From the NCBI GenBank assembly GCA_021736305.1, contig JAIPGD010000003.1:4306-68305 (forward strand): a DNA stretch of 64,000 bases, read 5' to 3'. This document shows positions 7,351-42,721 of the stretch, in pieces (within the stretch, counting starts at the first letter, position 1; each line of letters starts with the position of its first letter). Position numbers and translations under genes: made by a program. The notes beneath the pieces were generated by a model. That model did no database searches and was not told where the DNA came from. It saw only the letters and a program-made list of their open reading frames with translations. This DNA comes from Candidatus Izemoplasma sp. GTDB taxonomy: Bacteria; Bacillota_I; Bacilli_A; Izemoplasmatales; Hujiaoplasmataceae.

Positions 7351-7426
7351 ATGCATTACTCCTTTTTGTCTTACCCTTTATTATATCAAATTTTACTAAT
7401 TATTTCTTTCTTTTTCTGCAAATTTT

Positions 7427-20513: not shown

Positions 20514-21797
20514 GTATGTTGCAATTGAATTTGGAAAATCTACTTCACTTAAATTCACTAATATTTCTTTCCCAATTAAATCCTTCGTTCCTTTAACTAG
20601 AACAGATAGATAATCACGCGAATGGCCAAAAAGAAAATCGCCTTTCATTTGTTCAACAATAATTCTTTTATCTTTGCCTAGCTGTTTATTTATATAATCA
20701 AGCTTTAATTGATTACTTAATTCGATAAGACTACTAACTCTTGATTTTTTAATTTTTCCGTTCACTTGTTCTTTCATTTTATTTGCAGAGGTTCCTTTTC
20801 TTTGAGAATAAGGAAATACATGTAATTCTTGAAAATTGATTTCCTTTATAAATTCATAAGCTTCAATAAAATCAGCTTCTGTCTCACTAGGGAAACCAAC
20901 AATTACATCGGTTGTAATAGCAACATCTTTAAAAAGTTTTCTTATTTCTAATATTTTATCTTTAAATTCTACTTTAGTATATTTTCTATTCATTAACTTT
21001 AATATTCTTTCACTACCACTTTGTAATGGAATATGAAAATGATTAACGATTTTATCAGATTTTTTAATAACTGATAATACTTCATTATCTAATTCAGTAA
21101 TTTCAATTGAAGATATTCTGATTCTTTTAATTCTCGGTATTAATTCGATATCTCTCAAAAGATTCGCAAAACTGTAATCACTTAAATCCTCACCATAGCC
21201 ACCTGTATGAATTCCTGTAAGGACAATTTCAATATGTCCTTTATCAACCAAGGCTATAATTTCTTTTAAAATAAGTTCTTTTGATTTTGATCTGATTCTT
21301 CCTCGTGTGTAGGGAATAATACAATAAGAACAAAAGTTATTACAACCATCTTGAATTTTTAAAAATGCTCTTTTATGATTTTTAAAATCATAAATTTCCA
21401 GATTTTCAAAGGCTTCATCATTTGTTAATTTTTCTGATTTATCTAACTTTACTTTATTATTAAGATACTCTTCTAAATACTCAATAATTTTATGACGATT
21501 TTTAGTTCCCAGAACTATTTTTACACCTGGAATCTCTAACATTTGTTTCGCTTTTAACTGTGATAAACAGCCCATAACAATTATAATTGCTTTCGGATTA
21601 TTTTTAATTGGTCTTCTTATAATTTGTTTAGATTTTCTTTCCCCCGAATTAGTAACCATACATGAATTAACAACGTAAACATCACTATAATCATTATAAT
21701 CTACGATTTCATAATCAGCATTCATAAATTGCTCTCTAATCGCTTCAGTTTCATAAGCATTAACTTTACAGCCTAATGTATAAAAAGCAACCTTCAT
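20493..21797 (-). CDS. mtaB: tRNA (N6-threonylcarbamoyladenosine37) methylthiotransferase, radical SAM (YqeV type)
   Basis: MKVAFYTLGCKVNAYETEAI (UPF0004 domain) and a CNNFCSYCIIP radical-SAM cluster. It lies downstream of rsmE as in B. subtilis and ends in TGA. Confidence 0.85.
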   Translation of the reverse strand: MKVAFYTLGCKVNAYETEAIREQFMNADYEIVDYNDYSDVYVVNSCMVTNSGERKSKQIIRRPIKNNPKAIIIVMGCLSQLKAKQMLEIPGVKIVLGTKNRHKIIEYLEEYLNNKVKLDKSEKLTNDEAFENLEIYDFKNHKRAFLKIQDGCNNFCSYCIIPYTRGRIRSKSKELILKEIIALVDKGHIEIVLTGIHTGGYGEDLSDYSFANLLRDIELIPRIKRIRISSIEITELDNEVLSVIKKSDKIVNHFHIPLQSGSERILKLMNRKYTKVEFKDKILEIRKLFKDVAITTDVIVGFPSETEADFIEAYEFIKEINFQELHVFPYSQRKGTSANKMKEQVNGKIKKSRVSSLIELSNQLKLDYINKQLGKDKRIIVEQMKGDFLFGHSRDYLSVLVKGTKDLIGKEILVNLSEVDFPNSIATYKKTYSN

Positions 21798-22519
21798 CGA
21801 TTTTCTCCCATCATAAACCTAAAAACAGATGCAACATATATCGCGGCTGTTTCAGCTCTTAATATTGTATTTCCTAATGCTACAGCAACAAACCCCTTTT
21901 CAAGTAAATAATCAGCTTCTTGATCAGAAAACCCGCCTTCAGGTCCAATTAAGAAAAGTACTTTTTTTGATAAATCTAGATTATCTATACATGAATTTAG
22001 TTGTATATTTTGTTCTTTAACATAGCCAAAAAACAAGAAATCATATGTTTTCAAATCTAAATCAGTTATTTTCTTAAAATCATAAATATCAGGCAGAGTA
22101 TTTCTTTGAGTTTGTTCACTGCTTTCCTTACAAATCGCTTTAAATCTCTCTAGTTTCTTCTGATAATCACTAATCTTAATGATTGAATATTCGGTTTCTA
22201 AAGGAATAATTCCTTTAACGCCTAGTTCAGTTATTTTTTTTAATGCTAATTCGAATTTGTCTTTTTTTATCAGACTAAGCCCAATATCAAGATTAACTGG
22301 TTTAAACTTAGACTCAACCTTATCAATTATTTTCAATTTAATTGATTTATTTGTTATTTCAAGTATTTTTGCTTGATAAACTAAACCAGAATACGTATTT
22401 AAAATAACAACTTGTCCAACTTTAAAACGCATCACATTTTTAATATGATGCATATCATTACCGATTATTTCTGTGTAAGGAAAATTTATATTCTTTTCTC
22501 TAATAAAATATCTTTGCAT
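21794..22519 (-). CDS. rsmE: 16S rRNA (uracil1498-N3)-methyltransferase
   Basis: MQRYFI start with a PUA-like N-terminus, then IGPEGGFS and LGNTILRAETA motifs. The start is set at the ATG after AGGTGG. Confidence 0.85.
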   Translation of the reverse strand: MQRYFIREKNINFPYTEIIGNDMHHIKNVMRFKVGQVVILNTYSGLVYQAKILEITNKSIKLKIIDKVESKFKPVNLDIGLSLIKKDKFELALKKITELGVKGIIPLETEYSIIKISDYQKKLERFKAICKESSEQTQRNTLPDIYDFKKITDLDLKTYDFLFFGYVKEQNIQLNSCIDNLDLSKKVLFLIGPEGGFSDQEADYLLEKGFVAVALGNTILRAETAAIYVASVFRFMMGENR

Positions 22520-22587
22520 AATTACCACCTATAATAAACATTCACAATAAGTATGATATCATAATTTAAAAAATAAATAAAAATAAT

Positions 22588-22614
22588 AGGCTAAAAACTT
22601 TTTGTTTTTAGCCT
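22588..22614 (-). terminator. terminator of the padR/SMC-like operon
   Basis: 11-bp stem AGGCTAAAAAC-TTTTT-GTTTTTAGCCT, 9 nt after the ATPase stop, followed on the minus strand by ATTATTTTTATTTATTTTTT. Confidence 0.85.
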
Positions 22615-22622
22615 AAACATAA

Positions 22623-25600
22623 TTAATCATTTTTTGTTAATTGCATAGTTCGAGCTTTTTTACCTTCTCTTAATGTCACAACAGTGGTATCAGTATACTT
22701 TTGTAATACTTCCATTTTTTGTGGTGGTGTTGATAACATAATTTGAACAGGTAATTGTTGAATAAACCTCATCATTGCCTTTATTCTTGATGTATCCATT
22801 TTATCAAACACTTCATCAAATAGAATTAATCCAATTGATTGTTGATTTATTTTTCTTGATGCTTGATCAAATACTCTTACAAATGAAGCCAAGGTAGCCA
22901 CATAAAAAGGAACTTGTGTTTCTCCACCTGATTTTTCTTTGAACACTTTAGAGTAGTTAATCTTATCACCTGATGTATTAGTAATCAGTATATCATAATC
23001 CATATAAGTTCTATAATCGGTAAATTTGTTTACACTACCTTTAGAATTTAAATCTTCAGAAGCAAGGTTAATGAATAATTCTTCTAGCTGTCGTTGGTAT
23101 TTCATCTCAAAATCATAATTAAAGATTTCTTCTCCTGATTTAACCGCTTCTTCACTTAATACCATATCATAGTATTCGCCATATTCTTTGCTTTTAGGAA
23201 AGATAAATTCATAACTATCTTCACCAAAACGAATATCTTTAAGTGTTTCGTTTATTTTTTTGATTTCATCTTGAGCTGAAATAATATAGTTTCTTAATTT
23301 AGCCATGAAATCTTCTTTAAATAGTTTTTCGGCTACTTCTCTAGCTTCTCTAACCTTTGATTCATATTTTACTAGTTCAGATTTCACTAATTTATTTCTC
23401 TCATCTAGATACTCATCGATAAACTCAAGACCGAATTGGTAACTCAAATTATAGTTCTGAGTATATTGAATTTGTTTAGTTCTTAGCGAATCTTCGAGAT
23501 TATCAATATTATTTAATTCTCTTGTTATTTTTTCTTGATAATTTTCAAATATATTACCTATACCATTACTAGCAACTTCTTCAGCAAATAATTTATCAGC
23601 TTGTTCTTTAAGTACAGGGTTGTCTGAAGTTATCGAAGCAATATTTGCTTTTATGCTTTCTAATTCTGTTTCTAATTCTAATAACTTATCATGAATGTTT
23701 GCTTCTTTAGTTTCTAAAGAGCCACTTTTTTCATAAGCCTTTTGACGACTAATGTTATAATCTTTAATTTCCTCTTTAATATTTTCATATTCAATTCTTA
23801 AATCCTTGAGGCTTTCTTGTGGAAGATTACGTTTTTTCTCAGCTAAATTTTTACGTTTTTCTTTTAATGCATCTACAGAATAATAACTTTTTAACATTCC
23901 AATGAAATTATCTAAATTTAATTTTTTAATCAAAGAAATTTCTTCAGTTATGTCATTCATTATGTTATTAATTTTTTGATGCTCTAAACTAAGTTCTTTG
24001 GCTTTTTTACGCCAACTTTCAAGTTGTGCTGTCTTAGCATTTTTGCCGATAAATGGTTTATCTTTAAGTCTCCATAATGATCTAACTGTATATGAACGAT
24101 AAACCATTCCATTTAATGTAATGGCTTGAGAATAATTTTCTAACTCACTAACATCATCAACCATAATCAGGTTACCACAAATCATATTTATGAAATTTTT
24201 AGCATCTTTATTTTCTGAATCAATGATAGATGCTAATGATTTATCTCTATATGTATCAAATTTTTGAATCTTTTTTGTATTTACCAAACCAATACCATAA
24301 ATATTTAAACTATCTTTGATTTGATTGTAAACACTCAATGCTAAATCAAAATATCTAGGCTCAACAATTAAATTAAATCTTTGGCGTCCTAAATAGTCTT
24401 CTACTGTATCTTGCCAAGTAGAATCACTTATTTCTAATAGTTCACATAAAATATGAACATTAATATCTACATTATATTGTTGTTTAACTCCTTCAATAAT
24501 TTTGCTTTGTAAACGCAAAATCATTGGATCATACTTAAGTTTATTATTTTCTAAACCTTTTAAGGTTTGATAAACATCATTTATCTCATTAACTAATTCT
24601 TGTTTTACGTGTTGATATTTTCCGAATTGTGAACGATTATTATCAATAATGTCATCTAAATCTTTTTCAATTTGAATCAGTTTTAATTTAGTTTCTTCAT
24701 AATTTTCATCATCAATATTTGCTAAATCTATCTTTGATAATTGCTTATAAGCTTTTTGACTATATTCTGAGTTTAAGTCCTCAATTGTATCTTTCATAGT
24801 TTTTGCTTTGTTTTTTGCGTAATTTCTAATTTCAGCTTGTTCATTGATTTTTTTAGTTAATTCATTAATCTCTTTATCATATATTTCTGAAGCTTTAAAA
24901 GTATCGTTGTTAGATAACATCGAATAAACTTCTTTTGCTCTTTCATCTAGTATATCTAATTGATCATTAATCTCTTCTATAAGATTCTTGTTTTGTTCTC
25001 TATCAAGCATAACCTTTTCTAGTTTTTTGTTTTCTTTTTCAAGTTTATCCTTAATGTTTTCAACTTCTAATAATTTAAGAAAATATTCATAAAATTCTTT
25101 TTGATTTATATTTTCTTGGATTTCTTCATAAGTCTTTGCAATATCATTTAAATCATCAACTTTACTTTTAATTATTTTCAAAGTAGCTTCTAAATCCTTA
25201 TATGCTCTTATTGATTCTTTGATTGACTCAACATCTAAAATTCTTTCTTCTAACAAATATTTATAGATAAATTCTTTAACATCTGATATTGGCTTGAAAG
25301 CTAAAGCTTTAGGCAATAACGAAAAATAATTTTCATTTATTGACCCAAACCGTTTTCTAAATGCCAATTTTGCTTCTCTTCTAGTTAAATGAACTCTATC
25401 AGCTTGTCTGGTTTTCTTAAAATTAACAGTTGTTAAAATAATGCCTTCATCATCAGTAAATAAGGATTCTTTGATTTTATCATTATATTCAAAGAAGATT
25501 ACTTTAGGAGGGATAATTTCACCAATAATATCAATCACTGAGCCCACAGTAAAATACGAATCATTTACTTCATCATAAAATTCTAATGCTATATGACCAG

Positions 25601-25865
25601 TTGTATCACCATCACGTAAATATTCTTGATTGTCAATACCTAATTTACATTTAACATAACCACGTAAATCACGTTTGCTTTTATCATTTGCAGCCAAATT
25701 AAAAATTTGATCTCCAGCGGTTAAGATAAACGCAATTGCATCGACTATAGTTGACTTACCAGTCGCATTTTGTCCAGTTATAAGTGTGTTGTTTTTAATA
25801 GCAATAGTTTCATTAGCAAAGTAATGCCAATTAATCAATCTTATTTTAGTTAGTTTTTTCATCAT
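22623..25865 (-). CDS. SMC-like ATPase of the MukB/MksB/JetC type
   Basis: N-terminal KIRLINWHYF...ITGQNATGKSTIVDAI (Walker A), a very long K/E/L-rich coiled coil, and C-terminal KSGGETQ plus IGLILFDEVFDKMD (signature, Walker B, D-loop). The start is ATG 25865 or 25862, after GGAAGTGA, and overlaps the upstream gene by 17-20 nt. Confidence 0.75.
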   Translation of the reverse strand: MMKKLTKIRLINWHYFANETIAIKNNTLITGQNATGKSTIVDAIAFILTAGDQIFNLAANDKSKRDLRGYVKCKLGIDNQEYLRDGDTTGHIALEFYDEVNDSYFTVGSVIDIIGEIIPPKVIFFEYNDKIKESLFTDDEGIILTTVNFKKTRQADRVHLTRREAKLAFRKRFGSINENYFSLLPKALAFKPISDVKEFIYKYLLEERILDVESIKESIRAYKDLEATLKIIKSKVDDLNDIAKTYEEIQENINQKEFYEYFLKLLEVENIKDKLEKENKKLEKVMLDREQNKNLIEEINDQLDILDERAKEVYSMLSNNDTFKASEIYDKEINELTKKINEQAEIRNYAKNKAKTMKDTIEDLNSEYSQKAYKQLSKIDLANIDDENYEETKLKLIQIEKDLDDIIDNNRSQFGKYQHVKQELVNEINDVYQTLKGLENNKLKYDPMILRLQSKIIEGVKQQYNVDINVHILCELLEISDSTWQDTVEDYLGRQRFNLIVEPRYFDLALSVYNQIKDSLNIYGIGLVNTKKIQKFDTYRDKSLASIIDSENKDAKNFINMICGNLIMVDDVSELENYSQAITLNGMVYRSYTVRSLWRLKDKPFIGKNAKTAQLESWRKKAKELSLEHQKINNIMNDITEEISLIKKLNLDNFIGMLKSYYSVDALKEKRKNLAEKKRNLPQESLKDLRIEYENIKEEIKDYNISRQKAYEKSGSLETKEANIHDKLLELETELESIKANIASITSDNPVLKEQADKLFAEEVASNGIGNIFENYQEKITRELNNIDNLEDSLRTKQIQYTQNYNLSYQFGLEFIDEYLDERNKLVKSELVKYESKVREAREVAEKLFKEDFMAKLRNYIISAQDEIKKINETLKDIRFGEDSYEFIFPKSKEYGEYYDMVLSEEAVKSGEEIFNYDFEMKYQRQLEELFINLASEDLNSKGSVNKFTDYRTYMDYDILITNTSGDKINYSKVFKEKSGGETQVPFYVATLASFVRVFDQASRKINQQSIGLILFDEVFDKMDTSRIKAMMRFIQQLPVQIMLSTPPQKMEVLQKYTDTTVVTLREGKKARTMQLTKND

Positions 25866-26451
25866 TTTCACTTCCAGTTTTAGTATCAATGTTTGTAATC
25901 AAATTATAGACATCATTTATTGTCTGAGTGTTAATTGCTAAAAGAATCGTTGGATATATTACAATTGGCGTCGATGATTTTGTTATGTCACCTAGTGTTT
26001 CAATTAAGTTATAACGTTTAAACAAACGTAGATTTTTAACTAAATCAGTCTTATTAATTTTCTTTTTTAATTCTAAAGAATCATAATAATCATGTATTTC
26101 ATCGACCTTAATAACAACATTATCATTAACAGAGGTTTTAACTAAATGCTCATGAAACAATATTCTTAATATTAATAGAATGATAGTTTCATCTTTTTTT
26201 AGCCTTAGTAGGTTATTATTCTCTCTATGAATTAATTGAATAGCACCCATTTCACGATCAATAACAAGCTCGAAATCCATTATGTCCAAATATTCATCAA
26301 AATACTTTTTATAACTAATAACAAAATAATACATTTCCTTATTATCATTTTTATCTCTCGCTAAAAAGCTATTAGCTAAAAGCCTTAAACAGACTTTAGC
26401 AAACATTTTTTGTTGGCCCATGTTTAGTTCATCAAAATTTTCTAGTATCAT
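25846..26451 (-). CDS. small MksE/JetB-like (DUF4194-like) subunit
   Basis: 201 aa, sitting between the kleisin-like gene and the SMC ATPase. An AAGGGGGA RBS precedes it, and its ATG abuts the upstream stop (TAAATG). The assignment rests on size, order and a general wHTH-like pattern, not on a search. Confidence 0.55.
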   Translation of the reverse strand: MILENFDELNMGQQKMFAKVCLRLLANSFLARDKNDNKEMYYFVISYKKYFDEYLDIMDFELVIDREMGAIQLIHRENNNLLRLKKDETIILLILRILFHEHLVKTSVNDNVVIKVDEIHDYYDSLELKKKINKTDLVKNLRLFKRYNLIETLGDITKSSTPIVIYPTILLAINTQTINDVYNLITNIDTKTGSENDEKTN

Positions 26452-27858
26452 TTAGTTTTCCCCCTTAATAACTTCAAAATCATCAATTGTAAATCGTGGA
26501 TTGTTTATTTTTCTATCTAGCGGATTAATATAATAATTCATATCATCACCAGCATAGACCAATATATATAATAGTCTTAATATTGCTTCATCAGACATAT
26601 TATTTTTAATAATATCACTTGCTTTAATTAAGTGATTCTCGCTAAAATATTCATTTAAATATTTTTCAATTACATGTTCAGAATAATTCACTTCAAACTC
26701 TCTATAAAACTCATCTTTTAATGATTGTTCTAAATTCGTATCATTTTCTTCTAAGAATTGACTTTCAATATGTTTATATATTCCTCTAGGTGTATACAAA
26801 GAAGTTTTAGATATTTGCTGGTAAGATGATAACGTGAACAGCGGTTTAATAACATTCATTGCCTTATTAGTTTTATTATCCTTAATACTTTCAGCTGTGA
26901 AATGTAAAATTTTCGATAATTTAGAAATTACATTTTCATCATTAGACAATAAAAACTTTATTTTTGCGATGGTAGTATTTACATAGACTTTATTTTTTTC
27001 ATCAATTTCATCAATTATATATGAAATTGAGTTATATATATCAATAATGTCATCTATTTTTTTATTCACTTTCATTAAAGCAATATCATAGTTGTTATGA
27101 CTCTTGATTAAATGTTCCTTTGCAAGAATTTCCATTATAACGCGGTCTTCCTGAATCGCTTCTAATTTTTTCACAATATTAGCTCGGTACTTATTAATGT
27201 TATCGCTTGTTTTAAGTCTTCTATAAGCTTTATCTACCAATTCAACTTTATAATTGACTAATAAATTGATTAGGTCTTTAATTTCAGAATTGTCCACAAT
27301 AGATTTAATATAAAATTTTAGCCTAGAATCTAGCTTCCGTATTTCTCTTACAAATGCAAGGGTATTTTTATATACTTGGTCTAGCACCATTGCATATTCA
27401 CCGTAATCGCTATTTAACAACGAATATACAGTATAGATATAACCTCTAAATTCATGTCCCTCATACTCATCATCACTATAATATGATTCACTAGTAATTT
27501 CTTTTAATGCTTCAATAATCGTAATTGAATAATCTCTAAAATTTAATATCTCTTCATAATTATTATTAACATCAATATCGATCCATTCAGTCTTTTCTAA
27601 TCTTCTTAAAATCTGATTAGCACGATCACGATTAGTTAAGATAGTTTCCTCTTCTTCATAATCTTCTAATTCTTCTTCTAATGGATTTAAATCAAGATAA
27701 TCTATAATTACTTGTCTCGCTAGATCTTTGTCCATCCCAAGGATAGAACCTTGTTCATAAACCCGAAATAATTCTAATAAACAATTAACATAAATAGATT
27801 TATTTTTGCTAGATAATAAATTAAAAAAATTGTTTGGTATTATATCAAAAACTCTCAT
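26452..27858 (-). CDS. MksF/JetA-like kleisin candidate
   Basis: 468 aa, first structural gene of the unit. It has an acidic linker (LEEELEDYEEEE) after an N-terminal helical domain. The RBS GGAAGTGA is identical to that of the ATPase gene. The assignment rests on size, order and context. Confidence 0.5.
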   Translation of the reverse strand: MRVFDIIPNNFFNLLSSKNKSIYVNCLLELFRVYEQGSILGMDKDLARQVIIDYLDLNPLEEELEDYEEEETILTNRDRANQILRRLEKTEWIDIDVNNNYEEILNFRDYSITIIEALKEITSESYYSDDEYEGHEFRGYIYTVYSLLNSDYGEYAMVLDQVYKNTLAFVREIRKLDSRLKFYIKSIVDNSEIKDLINLLVNYKVELVDKAYRRLKTSDNINKYRANIVKKLEAIQEDRVIMEILAKEHLIKSHNNYDIALMKVNKKIDDIIDIYNSISYIIDEIDEKNKVYVNTTIAKIKFLLSNDENVISKLSKILHFTAESIKDNKTNKAMNVIKPLFTLSSYQQISKTSLYTPRGIYKHIESQFLEENDTNLEQSLKDEFYREFEVNYSEHVIEKYLNEYFSENHLIKASDIIKNNMSDEAILRLLYILVYAGDDMNYYINPLDRKINNPRFTIDDFEVIKGEN

Positions 27859-27870
27859 GTAATCACTTCC

Positions 27871-28221
27871 TTATTCGTATCTTTCATAGTTGAATTCTCC
27901 GCTCACTAAACTAGATAATTTGTTCTCAAGATTAATCCAATCTTTTCTGAATTGTTCTAAATGTTTTTTACCTGTATCGTTTAGACGATAATAACGACGA
28001 CTCATACCTTTTTTATTTTTGCGCTTATAACTAGATATTTTACCATCTTTTGACAATCTTTTTAAGGCAATATATAACGTAGCTTCATTTAAATTAATAT
28101 TATGTTTACTAACTGTTTCAATAATCCGTGCAATTTCATAGCCATAACTATCATATTTTTCTAGAATAGACAGAATAATATAATCTGTAAAACCACGAAC
28201 ATGATCGCTAGAATTAGTCAT
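27871..28221 (-). CDS. PadR-family transcriptional regulator
   Basis: GFTDYIILSILEKYDSYGYEIARIIE...NEATLYIALKRLSKDGKISSY...RRYYRLNDTGKKHLE is the canonical PadR wHTH. The start is the ATG after GAGGTG. Its stop lies 12 nt from the start of the next gene. Confidence 0.85.
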   Translation of the reverse strand: MTNSSDHVRGFTDYIILSILEKYDSYGYEIARIIETVSKHNINLNEATLYIALKRLSKDGKISSYKRKNKKGMSRRYYRLNDTGKKHLEQFRKDWINLENKLSSLVSGEFNYERYE

Positions 28222-28257
28222 TATTATCACCTCGCTTTCAATACTTAATCTATTTAT

Positions 28258-28274
28258 GTATAAATCGTTTATAC
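28258..28274. promoter_or_regulatory. perfect 7-3-7 palindrome, candidate PadR operator
   Basis: GTATAAA-TCG-TTTATAC lies between the candidate -10 and the padR RBS. A related imperfect repeat (ACTTAAAC/GTTTATAGT) lies directly upstream, at about 28272-28290. Confidence 0.45.
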
Positions 28275-28287
28275 TTAAACTGTTTAT

Positions 28288-28316
28288 AGTATATAATATT
28301 CATAAAAAAAAGTAAA
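28288..28316 (-). promoter_or_regulatory. candidate promoter of the padR/SMC-like operon
   Basis: The minus strand reads TTTACT - 17 nt - TATACT. It lies 10 nt downstream of the T22 tract and upstream of the palindromic operator candidate. Confidence 0.5.
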
Positions 28317-28326
28317 TAACTTTTCC

Positions 28327-28348
28327 AAAAAAAAAAAAAAAAAAAAAA
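28327..28348. repeat. 22-nt homopolymer (A22 on plus, T22 on the coding strand)
   Basis: Counted directly: 22 consecutive A from 28327 to 28348. It forms the U-tail of the dnaJ terminator and abuts the padR promoter. Confidence 0.95.
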
Positions 28349-28367
28349 TACCAGAAAAATCTGGTAT
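28348..28367 (-). terminator. dnaJ (dnaK operon) terminator
   Basis: Minus strand: ATACCAG-ATTTTT-CTGGTAT immediately followed by T22. The hairpin begins at the dnaJ stop codon. Confidence 0.8.
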
Positions 28368-29494
28368 TATTTTGTAAAGTTTGATTTGAATTTCTGCCAA
28401 AAGCCTTTATTCTCATCGGGTTTATCCTCAATTTCAGCTAACTCTTCGAATAGTTTCTTTTGTTCTGCTGATAATTTCTTCGGTGTAGCAACAGTTATAA
28501 TTACATGTTGATCGCCTTTTTGTTTGGTTCGGACATTTGTCATACCTTTCCCTCGGAGTCTAAATTTAGATTCTGATTGGGTTCCAGCTGGAATAGTTAA
28601 CATAACATCTCCATAAACTGTTTTAACTTTTATTTCATCACCCAAAGCTGCTTGAGAAAAAGTAATTGGTTGCGTTACAATTATATCGTCGCCTTGACGA
28701 ACAAATTCATCTGATGGCTTAACTTTTATTAAGATATACAAATCGCCATTTGGACCACCATTTTGACCTTTATTTCCATAACCGGGTAAACGAATGTGTT
28801 GATTATTATCAATACCTGCTGGAACTTTAACTTCCACAGTTTTTGTTACTCTTTCTACACCTTCTCCGTTACAGTTTGTACATTTATTTTTGATTTCTTT
28901 TCCTGTTCCGCCACAACTAGGACATGTCGCACGAGTTCTAGTTCGGCCAAAAATTGTTTGTTCCTCCATGATAACTTGACCATTACCATTACATCTTGAA
29001 CAAGTTTTTATATCACTTTTTGATTGTGCTCCGCTACCATGACAAACATGACATTCATCATAGACAGGTACTTTTATTTTTTCTTTTTTACCAAAGACTG
29101 ATTCTTCAAAAGTCACAGTCATTACTTTTCTTATATCAGAGCCTTTTCTTGGAGCATTTCTTTGTGTTGGTCTAGAACGAGATGCTCCGCCACCAAAGAA
29201 TGAACTAAAAATATCACTGAAGTCAAAATCTCCAAAGCCACTTGAACTAAACCCACCTTGTCCAAAGCCTCCGCCTGGGGCTTGATGGCCAAATTGATCA
29301 TATTGGACTTTCTTTTGTGAATCTGATAAAACATCATAAGCTTCTTGTACTTCTTTAAATTTCTTTTCAGCATCCTTTTCAGTAGAAACATCAGGGTGGT
29401 ATTTTTTAGCTAATTTACGATAAGCTTTTTTAATATCTTCAGCAGATGCTGACTTATCTAATCCTAGTATTTCATAATAGTCTCTTTTGCTCAT
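28367..29494 (-). CDS. dnaJ: molecular chaperone DnaJ
   Basis: J-domain DYYEILGL...HPD, a G/F region and four CxxCxGxG zinc motifs. Confidence 0.95.
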
Positions 29495-35576: not shown

Positions 35577-36761
35577 TTATTTATATGGACTAAAATCGAT
35601 ATTACTAAATGTATCGTCGTCTTCGTCTTTATATCCTGTAGCAAAAATTAAATCATAAGTGTGTTGAGGGTTATCATAAGTTAATGTATCAATTGCAGTA
35701 TAAGCAGTATCTACATCATCAATCTTTGGACCTGCATTTAATCCTTCAAGTCCAGGATTTCCATCAATCACGTTTTTAGCTATAGCAACTGAATCAGCAC
35801 ATAATTTTGAAGTATCTTTAAATACTGTCATTGTTTGAGTGCCTTTACCTTTAATAGGGTCGCCCATTAAACTTGCTAATGCAACATTTGATGCATCTTG
35901 TCCAGTTGTATAATAGTTATCATACGGATGAGACATTTTAGCAAATTCTTGACGAATTGCTGCTGATGTATCATCATTTGGTGCAAGAACATATACATCT
36001 TCAGCTGATTTATCAACATCACCTATTGTAGCAACTAAAGCTGCTGCTTTTGTTGCTGCAGTTTGAGCGTTCCAGTCAGTATCAACTGGTAACATAGCTG
36101 CTTGTAAAGCGTCTTTAGCATCGTCATCAAAAGTAGCTTCTGTATAGAAACCTAAATCTGAGAAAGTGTCTTCAACGTTTATGATATTAAACATATCAAA
36201 ATTAGGTTGAATTTCTTCCATAGCTCCACCAAAGAAATATGTAGCATTAGGCCAGTCAGCAACTCTACCTGCGAAAATAGCTAAATCACATTTATTGTCA
36301 ACTGAACATCCATTTTCCTCTGCCATTTCAACTAAGTGACCGCCTTGAGCTTTCCCTACTTCCCAACTATTAAAAGTTGTATAGTAGTCAGCTTTGATTG
36401 TGTCATCTTTTTTTGCCATACGGTCATGTGCAATTAGAGTAACTCCTGCCTCATTAGCAGCTTGAGCAGCACCTGCGCCAGAACCTTCAGCAGTTAAAAT
36501 AATAACTTCTGCTCCTTTAGCGATTAAAGCGTCAACGTTTGTTTTTTCTTTAGCTTCATCACCTTCAGAGAATAGGATTTCATATTCATATCCCTCTCCT
36601 AAAGCATCCAATTCTTCTTCAAAGAATCTACCATCTTGATTTTTCCATCTTTCTTCAGATGCATCTGGTAATACTACACCAATTTTAATAGTTTGACTCT
36701 CGCAACCTGCAAGAGGAAGCAATAAAACTAGTGCAAAAACTAATACAATTAATTTCTTCAT
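35577..36761 (-). CDS. sugar ABC transporter substrate-binding lipoprotein (XylF/ChvE type, probable xylose)
   Basis: Lipobox LLLPLAG|C and a PBP type-1 fold signature (KIGVVLPD...IILTAEGSGAG...LIAHDR). It is the last gene of the xylA-xylB-ABC operon. Confidence 0.7.
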   Translation of the reverse strand: MKKLIVLVFALVLLLPLAGCESQTIKIGVVLPDASEERWKNQDGRFFEEELDALGEGYEYEILFSEGDEAKEKTNVDALIAKGAEVIILTAEGSGAGAAQAANEAGVTLIAHDRMAKKDDTIKADYYTTFNSWEVGKAQGGHLVEMAEENGCSVDNKCDLAIFAGRVADWPNATYFFGGAMEEIQPNFDMFNIINVEDTFSDLGFYTEATFDDDAKDALQAAMLPVDTDWNAQTAATKAAALVATIGDVDKSAEDVYVLAPNDDTSAAIRQEFAKMSHPYDNYYTTGQDASNVALASLMGDPIKGKGTQTMTVFKDTSKLCADSVAIAKNVIDGNPGLEGLNAGPKIDDVDTAYTAIDTLTYDNPQHTYDLIFATGYKDEDDDTFSNIDFSPYK

Positions 36762-36818
36762 TTTCTTCTCCTTTAAAAAAATTTTTATTTTTAAGTGTGA
36801 TTAAAATAACCACAAAAC

Positions 36819-38246
36819 TTAAACCTTAATCATGTCTTGATAATCTTCTTCGTTAGAAGATCTTATCATATTCTTAATTCTACTATATTGAGACTTAGCG
36901 TTAGTCAATTCATATTCATATTCAATAAGTGCTTCCCCAGCTTTTTTTGCAGCAGCAAGTTTCTTTTTAGCTGTCTTAAGACCTTGTTTAGCCTCAATAT
37001 ATTCTTCGCGATATTTCTTTCTTGCATAATACATACCTACTAAATCGACAGGCCTTACATTTCTAGTATAAATATCAAAAACAACAGCTAACAACAATAC
37101 ACTACCTAAAACAATAGGTTCAATATTTGAGTTGAATCCAGCTAATGCCATCCCGTTTTTAAGTGACATAATTACAACTGAACCAATTAGTGAGTTAACA
37201 ATTTTTCCTACTCCACCACTCGCGGAAGCTCCACCAATAAAGGTAGCTGCAATAGCGTATAATTCCCAGAACGGTCCATGGTTTGGCGATGTATTCTGTA
37301 CATATGAAGCGTACATTACACCAGACACTAATGCTAATATCCCCATTGATATAAATACAATGATAATGATTGTAGTAACTTTAATACCAGATAATTCAGC
37401 CGCTTCAGGATTACCACCAACTGCATAAATCCTTCGACCAAGTGTGGTCTTAGTAGTAAAGAAAAAATAAATAACCATTACCACCAGTGTAATTAATAAC
37501 AAATAAGATATTCCGCGGTATGAAGCTAAATTAAAAGCAATATATAACAATATCCCAATCACAAATACAGTTTTTGTAATATAAATTTGTAATGATTCAT
37601 TCTCTATACCGAGTTTATTATTTTTTCTTCTCTTCAAAATTGAAGATAAAACTAAAAATATTACAATTAGTATTCCCATAATGAAGGTGATCATATCTAG
37701 ATTGCCAATTTTAGCAGTACTTAAATATCCAACACCAATTTTATTAAAGAATTCATTTGAAGTAGGAATTGTTCTATTATTTGTTCTAATCATTAAGAAA
37801 CCTTTAAATATAAACATTCCTGCTAAGGTAATAACAAAGGATGGCACCTTTATCTTAGCAACAAAGAATCCTTTGATGATTCCAACAATAATGGTTATAA
37901 CCAAAGCTGATAGTAGCGCCAAAGGAATTGCAGTTCCTCTATTTTCAACAGCAACAACAACATAAGCTCCTAGAAAAGCACCTAAAAATCCAACTGATAA
38001 ATCAATCTGCCTAGTAACAATAACTAAAGTCATACCTATTGCTAAAACCGAAACATAAGCTGTTTGATTAAGCAAATTAGTAAAATTAATTGGTCCCAAG
38101 AATAAGCCATTGGTCATAATTGCGAAAGTCATAAAAATGACAGTCAACGCTATATACATACCATAATCACGAATGTTTGTTCGAAACATTGAAGTGATTA
38201 CAAGAAAATATCTTAAAACTGGATTTATTTTTTTAATCTCATTCAT
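36819..38246 (-). CDS. sugar ABC transporter permease (XylH/GguB type) with ~70-aa C-terminal coiled-coil extension
   Basis: About 10 TM segments. The C-terminal YYARKKYREEYIEAKQGLKTAKKKLAAAKKAGEALIEYEYELTNAKSQYSRIKNMIRSSNEEDYQDMIKV is hydrophilic. Confidence 0.75.
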   Translation of the reverse strand: MNEIKKINPVLRYFLVITSMFRTNIRDYGMYIALTVIFMTFAIMTNGLFLGPINFTNLLNQTAYVSVLAIGMTLVIVTRQIDLSVGFLGAFLGAYVVVAVENRGTAIPLALLSALVITIIVGIIKGFFVAKIKVPSFVITLAGMFIFKGFLMIRTNNRTIPTSNEFFNKIGVGYLSTAKIGNLDMITFIMGILIVIFLVLSSILKRRKNNKLGIENESLQIYITKTVFVIGILLYIAFNLASYRGISYLLLITLVVMVIYFFFTTKTTLGRRIYAVGGNPEAAELSGIKVTTIIIIVFISMGILALVSGVMYASYVQNTSPNHGPFWELYAIAATFIGGASASGGVGKIVNSLIGSVVIMSLKNGMALAGFNSNIEPIVLGSVLLLAVVFDIYTRNVRPVDLVGMYYARKKYREEYIEAKQGLKTAKKKLAAAKKAGEALIEYEYELTNAKSQYSRIKNMIRSSNEEDYQDMIKV

Positions 38247-38260
38247 TTAAACTTATCCTC

Positions 38261-39787
38261 CTATACTAAAGCTGCTTTATGCATAATTTTTTCAGCTGTA
38301 GCATCTTCAATATTAAATTCCGCTGTTTGAAGTCCTTCAGCTATAACATAAATACGATCGCACATACCCAAGATTTCAGGCAATTCTGATGAAATGATTA
38401 AAATACTCATTCCTTTAGCGACTAAATCATTAATAATCGTATAAATCTCATATTTAGCACCAACATCAATACCTCTAGTAGGTTCATCTAATATTAATAT
38501 TTTCGGCTCAGAAAAAAGCCATTTTGCAACTTGAACTTTCTGTTGATTACCACCACTTAAATTCTTAAGTTGTTGATATATAGAAGGTGTCTTAATATCT
38601 AAATCTTTAACATATTTTTTTGCAAAGAAAGATTGTTTAAAAAAATTTAATATTCCTCGTTTTGATATTTTATTTAAAGAAGCAAGACAAATATTTTGTC
38701 CGATGTTTTCTCCAAGAATCAAACCATCTTTCTTTCGATCTTCCGAAACATAAGCTATGCCATGTTTGATTGCTGATTGAGGATGGTGAAATTTTATATG
38801 TTCTCCTTGAACAATGACTCCTCCAGATATTTTATACTTGTCAATATTTCCAAAAATACTATGCGCAAATTCAGTTCTACCAGCGCCCATAAGTCCTGCA
38901 AGACCAACAACTTCTCCTTCTCGCAGTTTAATATTAGCATCATTAACAATGTATCTATTTAAATTGTTATCATAAGCATTAAAGTGAATTGTTTCTAAAA
39001 CAATTTTACCACTTTTGAATATAGGCCTTTTAGGGAAAATATCATCTATTTGCCTACCAACCATATGCTTAATAATTTCAAACTCATTAATCTCTTCAGC
39101 TAACATTCTTGTTATAACTTTCCCATCTCTTAAGATAGTTAATGAATCAGCAATTGCTTCAACTTCTCTTAATTTATGCGATATCATAATTGAAGTGATA
39201 CCCTTTTTTTTAAGTTCTACCAGTAAATCTAGTAAATTCTTACTATCATTTTCATTTAAAGCAGCAGTTGGTTCATCCAAAATTAATAATTTAACATCTT
39301 GACTTAGCGCTTTAGCAATTTCAATAAGTTGTTGCTTACCAACACCTAGGGTTCTAACTAAACGTTCAATTTCAACATCTAATCCAACCATATCAAGATA
39401 TTTCTTAGCCATCTTTTTTGTTTGAATCCAGTCTATAACGCCTCTACTATTAGCAATCTCATGGCCAACATATACATTTTCATAAACAGTTAAATCAGGA
39501 AACAAAGCTAATTCTTGATTAATAATTACTATACCATTTCTAACTGAGTCTTTAATACTATTAAAATGTTTAATTTCACCATTGAAAACAATATCACCTG
39601 AATAAGAACCAATAGGATATATTCCACTTAACACTTTCATTAGTGTAGATTTACCAGCACCATTTTCGCCTACTATAAAATGTATTTCACCTTTATCTAC
39701 ATGAATATCCACTTCATCTAAAGCCCTTACACCAGGGAATGTTTTTGTAATGGATCTCATTACAAGAATTTTCTCTTTTTCAGACAA
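38261..39787 (-). CDS. sugar ABC transporter ATP-binding protein, tandem ABC domains (XylG/GguA type)
   Basis: GENGAGKST plus LILDEPT in the first domain, and LSGGNQQKV plus LILDEPTRGID in the second. TTG start 6 nt after AGGGGTG. Confidence 0.8.
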   Translation of the reverse strand: MSEKEKILVMRSITKTFPGVRALDEVDIHVDKGEIHFIVGENGAGKSTLMKVLSGIYPIGSYSGDIVFNGEIKHFNSIKDSVRNGIVIINQELALFPDLTVYENVYVGHEIANSRGVIDWIQTKKMAKKYLDMVGLDVEIERLVRTLGVGKQQLIEIAKALSQDVKLLILDEPTAALNENDSKNLLDLLVELKKKGITSIMISHKLREVEAIADSLTILRDGKVITRMLAEEINEFEIIKHMVGRQIDDIFPKRPIFKSGKIVLETIHFNAYDNNLNRYIVNDANIKLREGEVVGLAGLMGAGRTEFAHSIFGNIDKYKISGGVIVQGEHIKFHHPQSAIKHGIAYVSEDRKKDGLILGENIGQNICLASLNKISKRGILNFFKQSFFAKKYVKDLDIKTPSIYQQLKNLSGGNQQKVQVAKWLFSEPKILILDEPTRGIDVGAKYEIYTIINDLVAKGMSILIISSELPEILGMCDRIYVIAEGLQTAEFNIEDATAEKIMHKAALV

Positions 39788-39830
39788 CTAATTCACCCCT
39801 GTCAATAAAATAAAATATATTATATATCAT

Positions 39831-41291: not shown

Positions 41292-41300
41292 AGAAATCTC

Positions 41301-42620
41301 CTAACCAATAATGTATTGATTAATAATAGATTCTAATAACTCTTGCCGTCCAGATTCATTTAAATCCAAAACTTTTTTATTTAAAATATATTTTTCTAGT
41401 TCTTTAAACCCAACTTTTTCTTCAACAATATCTTTACCTATTCCCTTTTTATAAGAAGAATATCTTTTTGCTAAATTATCTTCAATAACTCTATCTTCCC
41501 ATAAACGTGCAGCAACTTTTAATCCTACAGCATAAGCATCCATTCCAGCAATATGGCCATAAAATAAATCTTCAACTGAGAAAGAACTTCTTCTTACTTT
41601 AGCATCAAAATTCAATCCACCAGTATTAAAACCTCCACCACGAATAATTTCATACATTGTTAGTGCTGTGTCATGAATATTTGTCGGAAACTGATCTGTA
41701 TCCCAGCCTAATAGTAAATCACCTTGATTAGCATCAACACTACCTAAAACGCCATTATCAACAGCTAATCTGATTTCATGATTCATTGTATGTCCAGCTA
41801 ATGTAGCATGATTAGTTTCAATATTTAGTTTAAAATCATTTATTAAATCATATTTTCTTAAAAACGAGATTACTGTAGCGCTATCGAAATCATATTGATG
41901 TTTAGTTGGTTCTTTAGGTTTAGGTTCAATATAAAATTGTCCTTCAAACCCAATCTCTTTTGCATAGTCAACAGCCATATGCAAAAATCTAGCAAAATTA
42001 TCTTGTTCTAATTTCATATCAGTATTTAAGAGAGTTTCATAGCCTTCTCTACCACCCCAAAATGTAAATCCAGAACCATCTAATCTTTTAGTAATTTCCA
42101 TTGCTTTTTTTACTTGTGTAGCTGCAAAAGCAAAAATGTCAGCGTTTGGACTGGTTGATGCGCCATTAACAAAACGTTTGTTGCTAAACAAATTAGCAGT
42201 TCCCCATAATAGCTTTATACCAGTTCTTTTCATTTCAGATTCAATTATATCAACAATTTCGTCTAAATTTTTGTTGCTTTGTTCAATAGTTTTTCCCTCA
42301 GGAGCGATATCACGATCATGAAAACAAAAATACTCCAACCCCATTTTTTCCATAAACTCAAAAGCAACCTTAACTCTTACTTTCGCTTGTTCCATTGGAT
42401 CAGTTGTTATTTCATCCCATGGTCTTTCCATAGTTGCATTACCAAAAGGATCTTTACCATCAGCTACTAGTGTATGCCAATAAGCCATAGAGAATTTAAG
42501 ATGATCTTTCATTTTCTTACCTAAAACTTTTTCTTCTGGATTATAATATTTAAATGCAAACGGGTTTTTACTGTCCGAGCCTTCGTATTTGATTTTTGTA
42601 ATTCCTTTAAAATATTCCAT
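41301..42620 (-). CDS. xylA: xylose isomerase
   Basis: [24 protein letters not shown] and [10 protein letters not shown] motifs, 439 aa. Confidence 0.95.
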
Positions 42621-42721
42621 TTTTCTCTCCTTTTAAAAAAATATTTACATAATTTCTTCTATTTGCTAAAGTATTTTTTTTATGATATATTCAAAATATA
42701 AAAAAACAAGTTGGTGATAAA

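What the first reader, a model, noticed from the sequence alone, without database searches (positions are those of the whole stretch)
22588..28316. PadR-led MksFEB/JetABC-like SMC operon with no JetD/MksG nuclease, wedged into the conserved dnaK heat-shock operon
**Gene content.** Four tightly coupled minus-strand genes make up the unit:
- a PadR wHTH regulator (116 aa);
- a 468-aa protein with an acidic linker, matching the size and position of kleisin JetA/MksF;
- a 201-aa protein, matching the size and position of JetB/MksE;
- a ~1081-aa SMC-like ATPase.

The ATPase head is of the MukB/MksB/JetC kind: LINWHYF...GQNATGKST at the N-terminus, and SGGETQ plus LILFDEVFDKMD at the C-terminus, separated by a long coiled coil. 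It is not a canonical Smc head.

**Coupling.** There is a 12-nt gap after padR, then an abutting TAAATG junction, then a 17-20-nt overlap. The kleisin-like and ATPase genes share the same GGAAGTGA RBS.

**Placement.** The unit carries its own promoter and palindrome and an 11-bp-stem terminator. It sits exactly between dnaJ and rsmE. In the B. subtilis hrcA-grpE-dnaK-dnaJ-prmA-rsmE-mtaB operon those two genes are separated only by prmA, and prmA is absent here.

**Why it is unusual.** Described Wadjet/MksBEFG plasmid-defence systems depend on the Toprim nuclease subunit JetD/MksG. No such ORF exists anywhere in this 64-kb window. A PadR gene as the first cistron is not part of the architectures I know.

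**Possible readings.** It could be a nuclease-free, PadR-gated DNA-compaction or foreign-DNA-silencing variant, a second condensin in a small genome, or a split system with the nuclease elsewhere.
Basis: partly seen in the sequence, partly recalled or inferred. Interest (0 to 1): 0.8.

Follow-up and report, generated by a model that had tools for sequence, protein, structure and literature searches.

The report
PadR-controlled nuclease-free JetABC condensin operon
This Izemoplasma operon encodes the DNA-looping core of the Wadjet anti-plasmid system (JetA, JetB, JetC) behind a PadR repressor but has no linked gene for the DNA-cutting subunit JetD, and because the same arrangement is inherited vertically under strong constraint across a whole bacterial order, it most likely works as a chromosome-organising condensin rather than as a defence system.

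Summary
Window 22587-28368 (minus strand) holds an insulated operon, padR-jetA-jetB-jetC, between dnaJ and rsmE. The three large proteins are clear type I Wadjet JetA, JetB and JetC (PADLOC E = 9e-108, 2e-58, 2e-299). No JetD gene exists in the 64 kb.

It is not a recent insertion. In 63 species-level Izemoplasmatales genomes the order hrcA-grpE-dnaK-dnaJ-(cargo)-padR-jetABC-(cargo)-rsmE-mtaB recurs.
- JetC divergence tracks housekeeping divergence (r = 0.945).
- dN/dS is 0.004-0.08, as for dnaK and dnaJ.

A sister group (Anaeroplasmataceae/Acholeplasmatales) has jetABC without padR, next to sepF and ileS. Among evaluable loci, JetD follows jetC in 0 of 58 in this clade and in 48 of 53 more distant type I systems.

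The padR promoter carries 3-5 conserved 15-bp operator-like repeats between the -10 box and the RBS.

Best reading: a PadR-autorepressed, nuclease-free, MksBEF-like condensin. It is a natural case of the proposed domestication of Wadjet.

Unresolved:
- whether Smc-ScpAB or an unlinked JetD exists elsewhere in these genomes;
- why two JetD-docking features are largely retained.

Verdict: a new variant of a known kind, of moderate to good interest.

The parts
28347..28368 (-). Intrinsic terminator of the upstream hrcA-grpE-dnaK-dnaJ operon (9-bp stem followed by a long T run). It insulates padR-jetABC from heat-shock transcription.
28288..28316 (-). Sigma-A-type promoter of the operon: TTTACT, 17 nt, TATACT. 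Relatives have TTTACA-17-TATAAT.
   Evidence: A -35/-10 pattern was found at the same place in 57 of 61 related loci.
28243..28287 (-). Operator-like array of three tandem 15-bp units: ATAAACAGTTTAAGT, ATAAACGATTTATAC and ATAAATAGATTAAGT. It lies between the -10 box and the RBS and contains the palindrome GTATAAA-CGA-TTTATAC. This is the inferred PadR binding site.
   Evidence: The sequence is. There are 229 such units in 60 loci, 3-5 per locus, with consensus ATAAAcAgatTATrT. In the 64-kb window the two-unit pattern matches without mismatch only at this promoter; one further 1-mismatch match lies at 49893-49919. In total 4 matches were found against 0.21 expected by chance.
27871..28221 (-). 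padR: a 116-aa single-domain PadR-family winged-helix regulator and first cistron of the operon.
   Evidence: Pfam PadR, E = 4.7e-19, 68.6 bits against a cut-off of 27. It lies immediately upstream of jetA in all 63 Izemoplasmatales genome loci and is absent from every other JetABC locus examined.
26452..27858 (-). jetA: the type I Wadjet kleisin subunit (468 aa).
   Evidence: Pfam JetA, E = 4e-71, covering profile positions 2-433 of 434. PADLOC JetA1, E = 9e-108.
25846..26451 (-). jetB: the KITE subunit (201 aa, DUF4194). It has the conserved N-terminal peptide MILENFDEL.
   Evidence: DUF4194, E = 9e-29. PADLOC JetB1, E = 2e-58. Pfam MksE gives only E = 3e-4, below its cut-off. The N-terminal peptide was compared across groups.
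22623..25865 (-). jetC: the MukB-like SMC ATPase (1080 aa). Walker A (GQNATGKST), signature (SGGETQ) and Walker B (LILFDEVFDKMD) motifs are intact.
   Evidence: PADLOC JetC1, E = 2e-299, covering residues 10-1086 of the 1088-aa ORF (from TTG 25889) and profile positions 1-1087 of 1097. The best solved-structure matches are JetC entries 8as8, 9qxt and 8dk2. The start codon was fixed.
22587..22615 (-). Intrinsic terminator of the operon (12-bp stem TAGGCTAAAAAC/GTTTTTAGCCTA plus a T run), upstream of rsmE.

Best explanation
**What it is.** padR-jetA-jetB-jetC is a vertically inherited, housekeeping-type SMC operon of the order Izemoplasmatales. It is the kleisin-KITE-SMC core of a type I Wadjet system with no linked JetD nuclease gene.

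**How it most likely works.**
- JetC dimers are closed by JetA and carry JetB dimers. JetA joins these into a dimer of motors that uses ATP to extrude DNA loops, as shown for type I JetABC in other organisms.
- With no linked nuclease, the likely substrate is the cell's own chromosome. The complex would then help to compact or resolve sister chromosomes, as the nuclease-free MksBEF complexes of Pseudomonas aeruginosa and mycobacteria do.
- PadR, the first cistron, is inferred to bind the 3-5 tandem 15-bp repeats between the -10 box and the ribosome-binding site of its own promoter. That would repress the whole operon and set the dose of the complex.

**Shown here.** Gene identities, intact ATPase motifs, absence of a linked JetD across the clade, order-wide synteny, co-divergence with housekeeping genes, strong purifying selection, and a conserved promoter with its repeat array.

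**Inferred.** Loop extrusion, action on the chromosome, and PadR binding and autorepression.
For: 1. **Identity.** Pfam, PADLOC and solved-structure matches are all to type I JetA, JetB and JetC.
2. **No JetD.** None in the window. Among loci with a complete jetC 3' end and at least 1.3 kb downstream, none of 58 in the clade has JetD, against 48 of 53 more distant type I loci where JetD directly follows jetC.
3. **Fixed housekeeping position.** hrcA-grpE-dnaK-dnaJ...padR-jetABC...rsmE-mtaB occurs in 63 Izemoplasmatales species genomes. In the sister group, jetABC lies between ychF and a sepF-like gene, ylmH and ileS, or next to groEL.
4. **Vertical inheritance.** Pairwise JetC identity tracks housekeeping identity in 25 complete loci (r = 0.945, Mantel p <= 0.001). 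Mean pairwise identity is 0.67-0.69 for JetA, JetB and JetC, 0.73 for DnaJ, 0.585 for MtaB and 0.44 for RsmE.
5. **Purifying selection.** dN/dS is 0.004-0.08 for jetA, jetB and jetC, like dnaK and dnaJ (0.02-0.08) and lower than rsmE in all but one gene-and-pair comparison.
6. **One JetD-less clade.** JetC of Izemoplasmatales plus the Anaeroplasmataceae-like group is monophyletic in a neighbour-joining tree and nested among JetD-bearing lineages.
7. **Regulation.** The promoter and the 15-bp repeat array are conserved in 60 loci. PadR co-diverges with the operon.
8. **Precedent.** Nuclease-free MksBEF acts on the chromosome, and reviews propose it arose from Wadjet by loss of JetD.
Against: - No functional data exist for this clade.
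- Whole genomes could not be searched, so an unlinked JetD or another effector is not excluded.
- Two features that contact JetD in E. coli JetABCD are largely kept. The JetB N-terminal amphipathic peptide is nearly invariant in Izemoplasmatales: MILE[NKQ][FY][DE]xL.
- The JetC residue aligned with E. coli F919 is still Phe in 47 of 60 clade members, although Leu or Met appears in 13 of 60, against 1 of 51 in JetD-bearing relatives.
- A repressor as first cistron is more usual for accessory or inducible functions than for a constitutive condensin.
- If Smc-ScpAB is also present, which is likely given other Mollicutes, the need for a second condensin in genomes of 1.6-2 Mb is unexplained.
- The tree is neighbour-joining, midpoint-rooted and without support values.
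Confidence: 0.6

Rival explanations
1. Split Wadjet defence system. JetABC still senses small circular DNA, and a JetD or another nuclease encoded elsewhere in the genome docks on it and cuts plasmids.
For: - The JetB N-terminal peptide and the JetC Phe aligned with E. coli F919, both JetD aCAP contacts in type I systems, are largely retained.
- The proteins still score best against Wadjet type I models.
Against: - JetD is directly downstream of jetC in 48 of 53 evaluable distant type I loci and in none of 58 loci of this clade. No JetD-like ORF lies within 8-10 kb of jetABC (less where the contig ends sooner) in any of the 84 held loci of this clade.
- Order-wide vertical inheritance and housekeeping-level constraint are unlike defence genes.
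- The docking Phe is relaxed to Leu or Met in 22% of clade members.
- The retained features may have structural roles that do not depend on JetD.
Confidence: 0.15
2. Nuclease-independent immunity. JetABC compacts or silences incoming plasmid or phage DNA without cutting it, as eukaryotic Smc5/6 does with extrachromosomal circles. PadR would gate expression in response to a signal.
For: - The complex descends from a plasmid-sensing machine.
- It has a dedicated repressor.
- The Smc5/6 precedent is summarised.
Against: - No evidence of linkage to mobile elements or defence islands; the neighbours are housekeeping genes.
- Slow, clock-like evolution.
- In tested Wadjet systems all four subunits are needed for plasmid restriction.
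Confidence: 0.1
3. Recently inserted or decaying remnant. A mobile Wadjet island landed in the dnaK operon and lost jetD, and the remaining genes are on the way to decay.
For: - The position interrupts a gene order (dnaJ-prmA-rsmE) that is contiguous in Bacillus subtilis (established knowledge).
- Variable cargo accumulates on both sides of the unit in some genomes.
Against: - The same position and order occur in 63 species genomes.
- G+C is 0.25-0.27, like the flanks.
- All ATPase motifs are intact.
- dN/dS is 0.004-0.08.
- Only one locus (L066) shows a frameshift.
Confidence: 0.02

Closest known systems
MksBEF nuclease-free condensins (Pseudomonas aeruginosa MksBEF; Mycobacterium smegmatis MksB complex)
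   Same: - A three-subunit kleisin-KITE-MukB-like SMC operon in the order F-E-B, with no MksG/JetD nuclease.
- Chromosomal and non-mobile.
- Proposed in reviews to derive from Wadjet by loss of JetD.
   Different: - The proteins here match type I Wadjet models far better than the Pfam MksE model (DUF4194 E = 9e-29 against MksE E = 3e-4, below its cut-off). This is therefore a separate lineage and probably a separate loss of JetD.
- MksBEF is described as scattered by horizontal transfer. This unit sits at a fixed housekeeping position throughout an order.
- It has a dedicated PadR first cistron.
Type I Wadjet / JET nuclease (JetABCD of E. coli GF4-3, P. aeruginosa PA14, Corynebacterium glutamicum MksBEFG)
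   Same: - JetA, JetB and JetC families, gene order and overlapping genes.
- End-to-end similarity of JetC to the solved JetC structures.
- JetB N-terminal peptide and JetC larynx Phe mostly retained.
   Different: - No jetD in the window or in any locus of the clade.
- Vertically inherited and slowly evolving.
- Housekeeping neighbours.
- PadR regulator.
MukBEF of gamma-proteobacteria
   Same: A Wadjet-like SMC complex that became a vertically inherited chromosomal condensin of a whole lineage.
   Different: - No Pfam or NCBIfam match to MukB, MukF or MukE.
- MukBEF replaced Smc-ScpAB. Whether that happened here is unknown.
Single-domain PadR-family autorepressors (for example LmrR-type regulators; from my own knowledge)
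   Same: - About 110-116 aa, with a winged helix and one C-terminal helix.
- First gene of the operon it is presumed to repress.
- AT-rich dyad operators overlapping the promoter.
   Different: - The controlled genes are an SMC complex rather than a detoxification or efflux function.
- The operator is an array of 3-5 tandem 15-bp units rather than a single ATGT-N8-ACAT dyad.
- The ligand, if any, is unknown.

Membership tests
Wadjet type I (JetABCD) | JetA kleisin (Pfam JetA/DUF5716) | tested here: met
   PF18982, E = 4e-71, full length. PADLOC JetA1, E = 9e-108.
Wadjet type I (JetABCD) | JetB KITE subunit (DUF4194) | tested here: met
   PF13835, E = 9e-29. PADLOC JetB1, E = 2e-58.
Wadjet type I (JetABCD) | JetC MukB-like SMC ATPase | tested here: met
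   PADLOC JetC1, E = 2e-299, end to end. The best solved-structure matches are JetC chains.
Wadjet type I (JetABCD) | JetD Toprim nuclease encoded in the operon | tested here: not met
   No JetD in the window by tblastn or by a 51-sequence HMM (best score 4.4 bits). JetD is present in 0 of 58 evaluable loci of the clade and 48 of 53 distant type I loci. The rest of the genome was not searchable.
Wadjet type I (JetABCD) | Restriction of small circular plasmids | not testable with these tools
   Needs plasmid establishment or stability assays.
MksBEF nuclease-free condensin | Operon of kleisin, KITE and MukB-like SMC without MksG | tested here: met
   Gene order jetA-jetB-jetC followed by a terminator and then rsmE. 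No JetD/MksG.
MksBEF nuclease-free condensin | Sequence membership in the MksE family of the P. aeruginosa type | tested here: not met
   Pfam MksE scores 21.5 bits against a cut-off of 27. The proteins belong to the JetA/JetB (DUF4194) type I families instead. MksF and MksB models were not separately available.
MksBEF nuclease-free condensin | Contribution to chromosome organisation or segregation | not testable with these tools
   Needs Hi-C, nucleoid imaging or genetics. It is supported only indirectly by housekeeping synteny and constraint.
MukBEF | MukB, MukF and MukE family membership | tested here: not met
   No Muk family among the Pfam or NCBIfam matches at E <= 0.1.
Smc-ScpAB | Canonical Smc (TIGR02168) | tested here: not met
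   TIGR02168 scores 36.4 bits against a cut-off of 567.
PadR-family transcriptional regulator | PadR winged-helix domain | tested here: met
   PF03551 scores 68.6 bits against a cut-off of 27, covering profile positions 1-74 of 75.
PadR-family transcriptional regulator | Binds a dyad operator at its own promoter (autorepression) | tested here: inconclusive
   A conserved array of 15-bp repeats with internal dyads lies between the -10 box and the RBS in 60 loci. Its mismatch-free matches in the window are confined to this promoter. Binding itself was not tested.

The most novel reading that the evidence does not exclude
JetABC is the main or only condensin of Izemoplasmatales and the Anaeroplasmataceae/Acholeplasmatales group. 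On this reading it took over from Smc-ScpAB much as MukBEF did in gamma-proteobacteria, but was caught at an earlier stage: the proteins are still recognisably type I Wadjet and still carry the JetD-docking features.

A further speculative element is that PadR and its repeat array do more than repress the operon, for example by serving as a loading or dosage-sensing site for the complex.

The evidence here neither supports nor excludes the absence of Smc-ScpAB, because the rest of these genomes could not be searched.
Probability: 0.12. Interest if true: 0.85.

Novelty: new variant of a known kind. Interest (0 to 1): 0.58.

Why it matters
SMC researchers have proposed that the chromosomal condensins MukBEF and MksBEF arose when a Wadjet anti-plasmid machine lost its nuclease and was put to work on the host chromosome. 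That idea rests mainly on highly diverged complexes.

This clade offers a clearer natural case:
- The JetABC core is still plainly type I Wadjet by sequence.
- No JetD gene is linked to jetABC in any locus of the clade.
- It is fixed in housekeeping operons and inherited vertically under strong constraint across Izemoplasmatales and Anaeroplasmataceae/Acholeplasmatales.

It allows a direct comparison of nuclease-linked and nuclease-free relatives. One can ask which JetD contacts decay and which are kept, and whether motor geometry changes.

Four complete genomes of the clade are named as strains or chromosomes (zrk2, B36, WC30 and OW818673). If these or related strains are in culture (not verified here; a different Izimaplasma isolate is reported as cultured in the preprint 10.1101/2020.11.18.388454), the role of the complex could be tested.

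The PadR first cistron with its conserved operator array is a regulatory arrangement not described for any SMC complex in the papers searched.

There is also a practical point. Tools that require all four genes will skip these loci, and annotation pipelines already label the subunits 'Wadjet anti-phage system protein', which is probably misleading for this clade.

Tried and rejected
1. **Looking up the source contig.** The exact-protein look-up of JetC failed because I first used a start codon 3 nt too far upstream.

2. **Whether these genomes have Smc-ScpAB.**
This is uninformative, because those loci cover only about 10 kb either side of jetABC.
   - The large protein search lists only the best 120 hits, which would all be Bacillus for such a query, so it was not run.
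   - Paper searches gave nothing on SMC in Izemoplasmatales or Acholeplasma.

3. **Searching for an unlinked JetD** with the large protein database was rejected for the same ranking reason.

4. **Solved-structure searches** with JetA and JetB single sequences found nothing at E <= 0.01. Only JetC matched.

5. **prmA in the variable gaps.** I checked whether the gaps between dnaJ and padR hold prmA. They do not. They hold a radical SAM gene, a heliorhodopsin gene, unknown ORFs and, in L067, proS.

6. **The paper that defined the JetB 'IFDR' motif** (PMC9637719) is not held. The motif comparison therefore rests on two secondary descriptions and on my own alignment, and the equivalence of MILENFDEL to IFDR is not proven.

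7. **Recent-insertion and decaying-remnant readings** were considered and rejected.

Full report
**1. What is in the window.** On the minus strand between dnaJ (28367-29494) and rsmE (21794-22528) lie four closely packed ORFs:
- padR, 27871-28221
- jetA, 26452-27858
- jetB, 25846-26451
- jetC, 22623-25865

- a 12-nt gap after padR;
- a TAAATG abutment of jetA and jetB;
- a 20-nt overlap of jetB with the first ATG of jetC (17 nt for the second ATG);
- GGAAGTGA in front of both jetA and jetC.

The unit is insulated:
- a 9-bp-stem terminator with a long T run closes the dnaK-dnaJ operon at 28368-28347;
- a TTTACT-17-TATACT promoter follows at 28316-28288;
- a 12-bp-stem terminator at 22615-22587 closes the unit before rsmE.

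G+C content (0.25-0.27) does not differ from the flanks.

**2. What the proteins are.**
- The first is a single-domain PadR regulator (Pfam E = 4.7e-19).
- The 468-aa protein matches Pfam JetA over its whole length (E = 4e-71) and PADLOC JetA1 (E = 9e-108).
- The 201-aa protein matches DUF4194 (E = 9e-29) and PADLOC JetB1 (E = 2e-58). Its match to Pfam MksE (E = 3e-4) is below that family's cut-off.
- The ATPase matches a PADLOC JetC1 model end to end (E = 2e-299).
- NCBIfam's canonical Smc model scores 36 bits against a cut-off of 567, and no Muk family appears.
- The only solved structures that match the ATPase are JetC of E. coli GF4-3 and P. aeruginosa PA14.

This is therefore the JetABC core of a type I Wadjet system, not merely something 'Mks-like'.

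**3. JetD is absent.**
- Two plasmid-borne type I systems supplied JetD sequences: Rossellomorea CP128836 and Butyrivibrio pCY360.
- tblastn with them gave only noise in the window and in 67 related genome loci.
- An HMM iterated to 51 JetDs scored at most 4.4 bits against any window ORF.
- The remaining large ORFs of the window read as parC, parE, sigA, dnaG, glyS, era, xylose genes, glycoside hydrolases and ABC transporters.

**4. It is ancestral and vertically inherited, not a recent insertion.** JetA of the window is 100% identical to a protein of a 'Candidatus Izimaplasma sp.' MAG and has hundreds of close relatives named Izemoplasmatales.

A scan of one genome per GTDB species returned 67 loci. 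In all 63 that belong to Izemoplasmatales the order is hrcA-grpE-dnaK-dnaJ-[0-9 kb of variable cargo]-padR-jetA-jetB-jetC-[0-5.8 kb]-rsmE-mtaB. This includes the complete genomes CP076020, NZ_CP168077, CP134495 and OW818673.

In 25 loci where all nine genes are complete:
- pairwise JetC identity tracks the mean of four housekeeping proteins (r = 0.945, Mantel p <= 0.001);
- JetA, JetB and JetC have mean pairwise identity 0.67-0.69, slightly below DnaJ (0.73) and above MtaB (0.585) and RsmE (0.44).

dN/dS between close pairs is 0.004-0.08 for jetA, jetB and jetC, the same range as dnaK and dnaJ. dS is saturated in most pairs. The least diverged pair gives 0.017, 0.004 and 0.013.

Only one locus shows a frameshift (L066). 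Other apparent breaks are scaffold gaps.

**5. The JetD-less state is a property of a deeper clade.**
- A Bacillota MAG (L067, JetC 51% identical) has dnaJ-proS-jetABC-rsmE-mtaB without padR.
- Anaeroplasmataceae genomes and gut or rumen metagenome contigs (JetC 41-48% identical) have jetABC without padR. In two Anaeroplasmataceae genomes and one metagenome contig ychF lies directly upstream. A sepF-like gene of about 110 aa lies immediately downstream of jetC in most, or after one intervening gene, and ylmH and ileS follow where sequence is available. In one contig groEL is the downstream neighbour.
- A protein search with one such JetC found 1680 relatives at E <= 1e-30. Where sources name them, they are Anaeroplasmataceae, Anaeroplasma or Acholeplasmatales, with one entry labelled Erysipelotrichaceae.
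- JetC identities are 0.56-1.0 within Izemoplasmatales, 0.42-0.53 between the two groups, and at most 0.36 to all other type I JetCs recovered.
- Among loci with a complete jetC end and at least 1.3 kb downstream, JetD is present in 0 of 58 in this clade. In the more distant systems it is present in 48 of 53, always directly after jetC.
- In a midpoint-rooted neighbour-joining tree the 60 full-length clade members are monophyletic. Their sister is a small group that also lacks JetD (L148, L149, L151), and both are nested among JetD-bearing lineages. This favours loss of JetD over primary absence, but the tree has no support values or outgroup.
- Two further JetD-less loci (L124, L131) lie elsewhere in the tree, so loss has probably happened more than once.

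**6. PadR and its presumed operator.** PadR occurs upstream of jetA in every Izemoplasmatales locus and in no other JetABC locus examined.

The 160 nt upstream of padR show the same layout in all loci where this stretch is readable (60 of 61): a TTTACA-17-TATAAT promoter followed at once by tandem 15-bp units that run to the ribosome-binding site.
- In 60 loci there are 229 units, 3-5 per locus in all but one.
- Positions 1-4 (ATAA) are at least 93% conserved and positions 11-13 (TAT) at least 80% conserved.
- Neighbouring units create short dyads, for example GTATAAA-CGA-TTTATAC in the window.
- In the 64-kb window a two-unit pattern matches without mismatch only at this promoter. In all there are 4 matches against 0.21 expected, one of them a 1-mismatch match at 49893 that is probably chance.

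A repressor site between the -10 box and the RBS, kept across an order together with the regulator gene, points to autorepression of the operon. Binding was not tested and no ligand is known.

**7. How it most likely works.** Studies of type I JetABC establish the following. JetC dimers, closed by JetA and carrying JetB dimers, form a dimer of motors that extrudes DNA using ATP. JetD is the only nuclease, and all four subunits are needed for plasmid restriction.

Here the ATPase motifs are intact, no linked nuclease gene exists, and the genes behave like core housekeeping genes. The best-supported reading is a nuclease-free condensin acting on the chromosome, comparable to MksBEF of P. aeruginosa and mycobacteria, with its dose set by PadR.

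Adjacency to sepF and the division-cluster genes in the sister group fits a cell-cycle role but does not prove one.

**8. What argues for caution.** Two elements that contact the JetD aCAP domain in E. coli JetABCD are still present.
- The short N-terminal peptide of JetB is nearly invariant in Izemoplasmatales (MILE[NKQ][FY][DE]xL). It resembles the hydrophobic-acidic N-termini of JetD-bearing relatives.
- The JetC column aligned with E. coli F919 is Phe in 46 of 51 JetD-bearing sequences (Trp in 3, Leu in 1, a gap in 1), in 39 of 48 Izemoplasmatales sequences (Leu in 7, Met in 2) and in 8 of 12 sister-group sequences (Leu in 4).

The modest relaxation fits the loss of a partner. The general retention could reflect a structural role, a different partner, or an unlinked JetD.

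I could not search the rest of any genome of the clade, so I do not know whether Smc-ScpAB or JetD exists elsewhere. Other Mollicutes keep Smc-ScpAB, so co-existence is the likelier case.

**9. Comparison with what is known, and novelty.**
- Membership in Wadjet fails on the defining nuclease.
- Membership in the MksBEF type is met in architecture but not in the sequence family of the Pseudomonas-type MksE.
- The concept of a nuclease-free Wadjet derivative working as a condensin is already in the literature.
- New here are a large, deep, vertically inherited clade that is still plainly type I JetABC, its fixed housekeeping positions, and the PadR first cistron with a conserved operator array. 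I found no paper mentioning PadR together with Wadjet, and none describing natural JetD-less type I JetABC beyond the remark about Pseudomonas MksBEF.

I rate it a new variant of a known kind, with interest about 0.58. If Smc-ScpAB proves absent from these genomes, the finding would be a second MukBEF-like replacement and much more notable. I give that a probability of about 0.12.

Noticed in passing
L034:8674-9462 (+), between dnaJ and padR: A heliorhodopsin gene (Pfam PF18761, E = 2.6e-98) sits in the variable cargo slot between dnaJ and padR in one MAG, labelled 'Bacillota bacterium' in its record. ORFs of the same 262-aa length occupy the same slot in L035, L037, L043 and L044. They were not scanned.
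   Followed up: partly
L040:15302-15772 (+), and the same position in L041-L043, L045, L047-L049, L054, L059-L061: In one Izemoplasmatales subclade, a conserved ORF of about 156 aa lies between jetC and rsmE on the same strand. It has only a weak, sub-threshold thioredoxin match (E = 1.3e-3). Its function is unknown and it is too small to be JetD.
   Followed up: partly
L063:15297-15629, L065:15874-16236, L083:11242-11571, L085:11261-11596, L087:6271-6591, L092:2702-3049: In the Anaeroplasmataceae-like sister group, a sepF-like gene of 106-120 aa follows jetC directly, or after one intervening gene in L064 and L065, often with ylmH and ileS beyond it. An SMC operon is thus joined to the end of the cell-division cluster. 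The SepF assignment is by eye only and was not checked against profiles.
   Followed up: no
L124, L131; L148, L149, L151: Further type I jetABC loci (JetC 31-32% identical to the window's) have at least 2 kb downstream and no JetD. L148, L149 and L151 form the sister group of the main JetD-less clade in the neighbour-joining tree. L124 and L131 lie elsewhere, which suggests an independent loss.
   Followed up: partly
L008:431-7306 (+) and L044:9636-14504 (+): Very large ORFs (2291 aa and 1622 aa) occupy the variable slots on either side of padR-jetABC in two genomes. They were not characterised.
   Followed up: no
window 28325-28346: An unusually long run of T (about 22) follows the dnaJ terminator stem on the minus strand. 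In relatives the run is shorter, usually 7-9 T.
   Followed up: no
window 417-1499 (-): A 360-aa ORF with no Pfam match at E <= 0.01. Its C-terminus looks like a winged-helix DNA-binding domain by eye.
   Followed up: partly
window 2771-7356 (-): The topoisomerase IV genes parE and parC lie about 15 kb from jetC in the same window. In E. coli, MukB interacts with ParC (my own knowledge). No link was tested here.
   Followed up: no
window 35577-43873: A xylose utilisation cluster read by eye from the translations: sugar-binding protein, permease, ATPase, xylulokinase, xylose isomerase and a divergent ROK regulator. Downstream at 50-56 kb lie a beta-glucosidase, two beta-glucanase-like genes and a LacI regulator.
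   Followed up: no
L066:1377-2673: jetA is split by a frameshift in this one MAG contig, with two tblastn segments in different frames. This could be an assembly error or a rare pseudogene.
   Followed up: partly
annotation strings: NCBI names for these proteins alternate between 'DUF5716 family protein' and 'Wadjet anti-phage system protein JetA family protein'. For this JetD-less, housekeeping-like clade the defence label is probably misleading.
   Followed up: no
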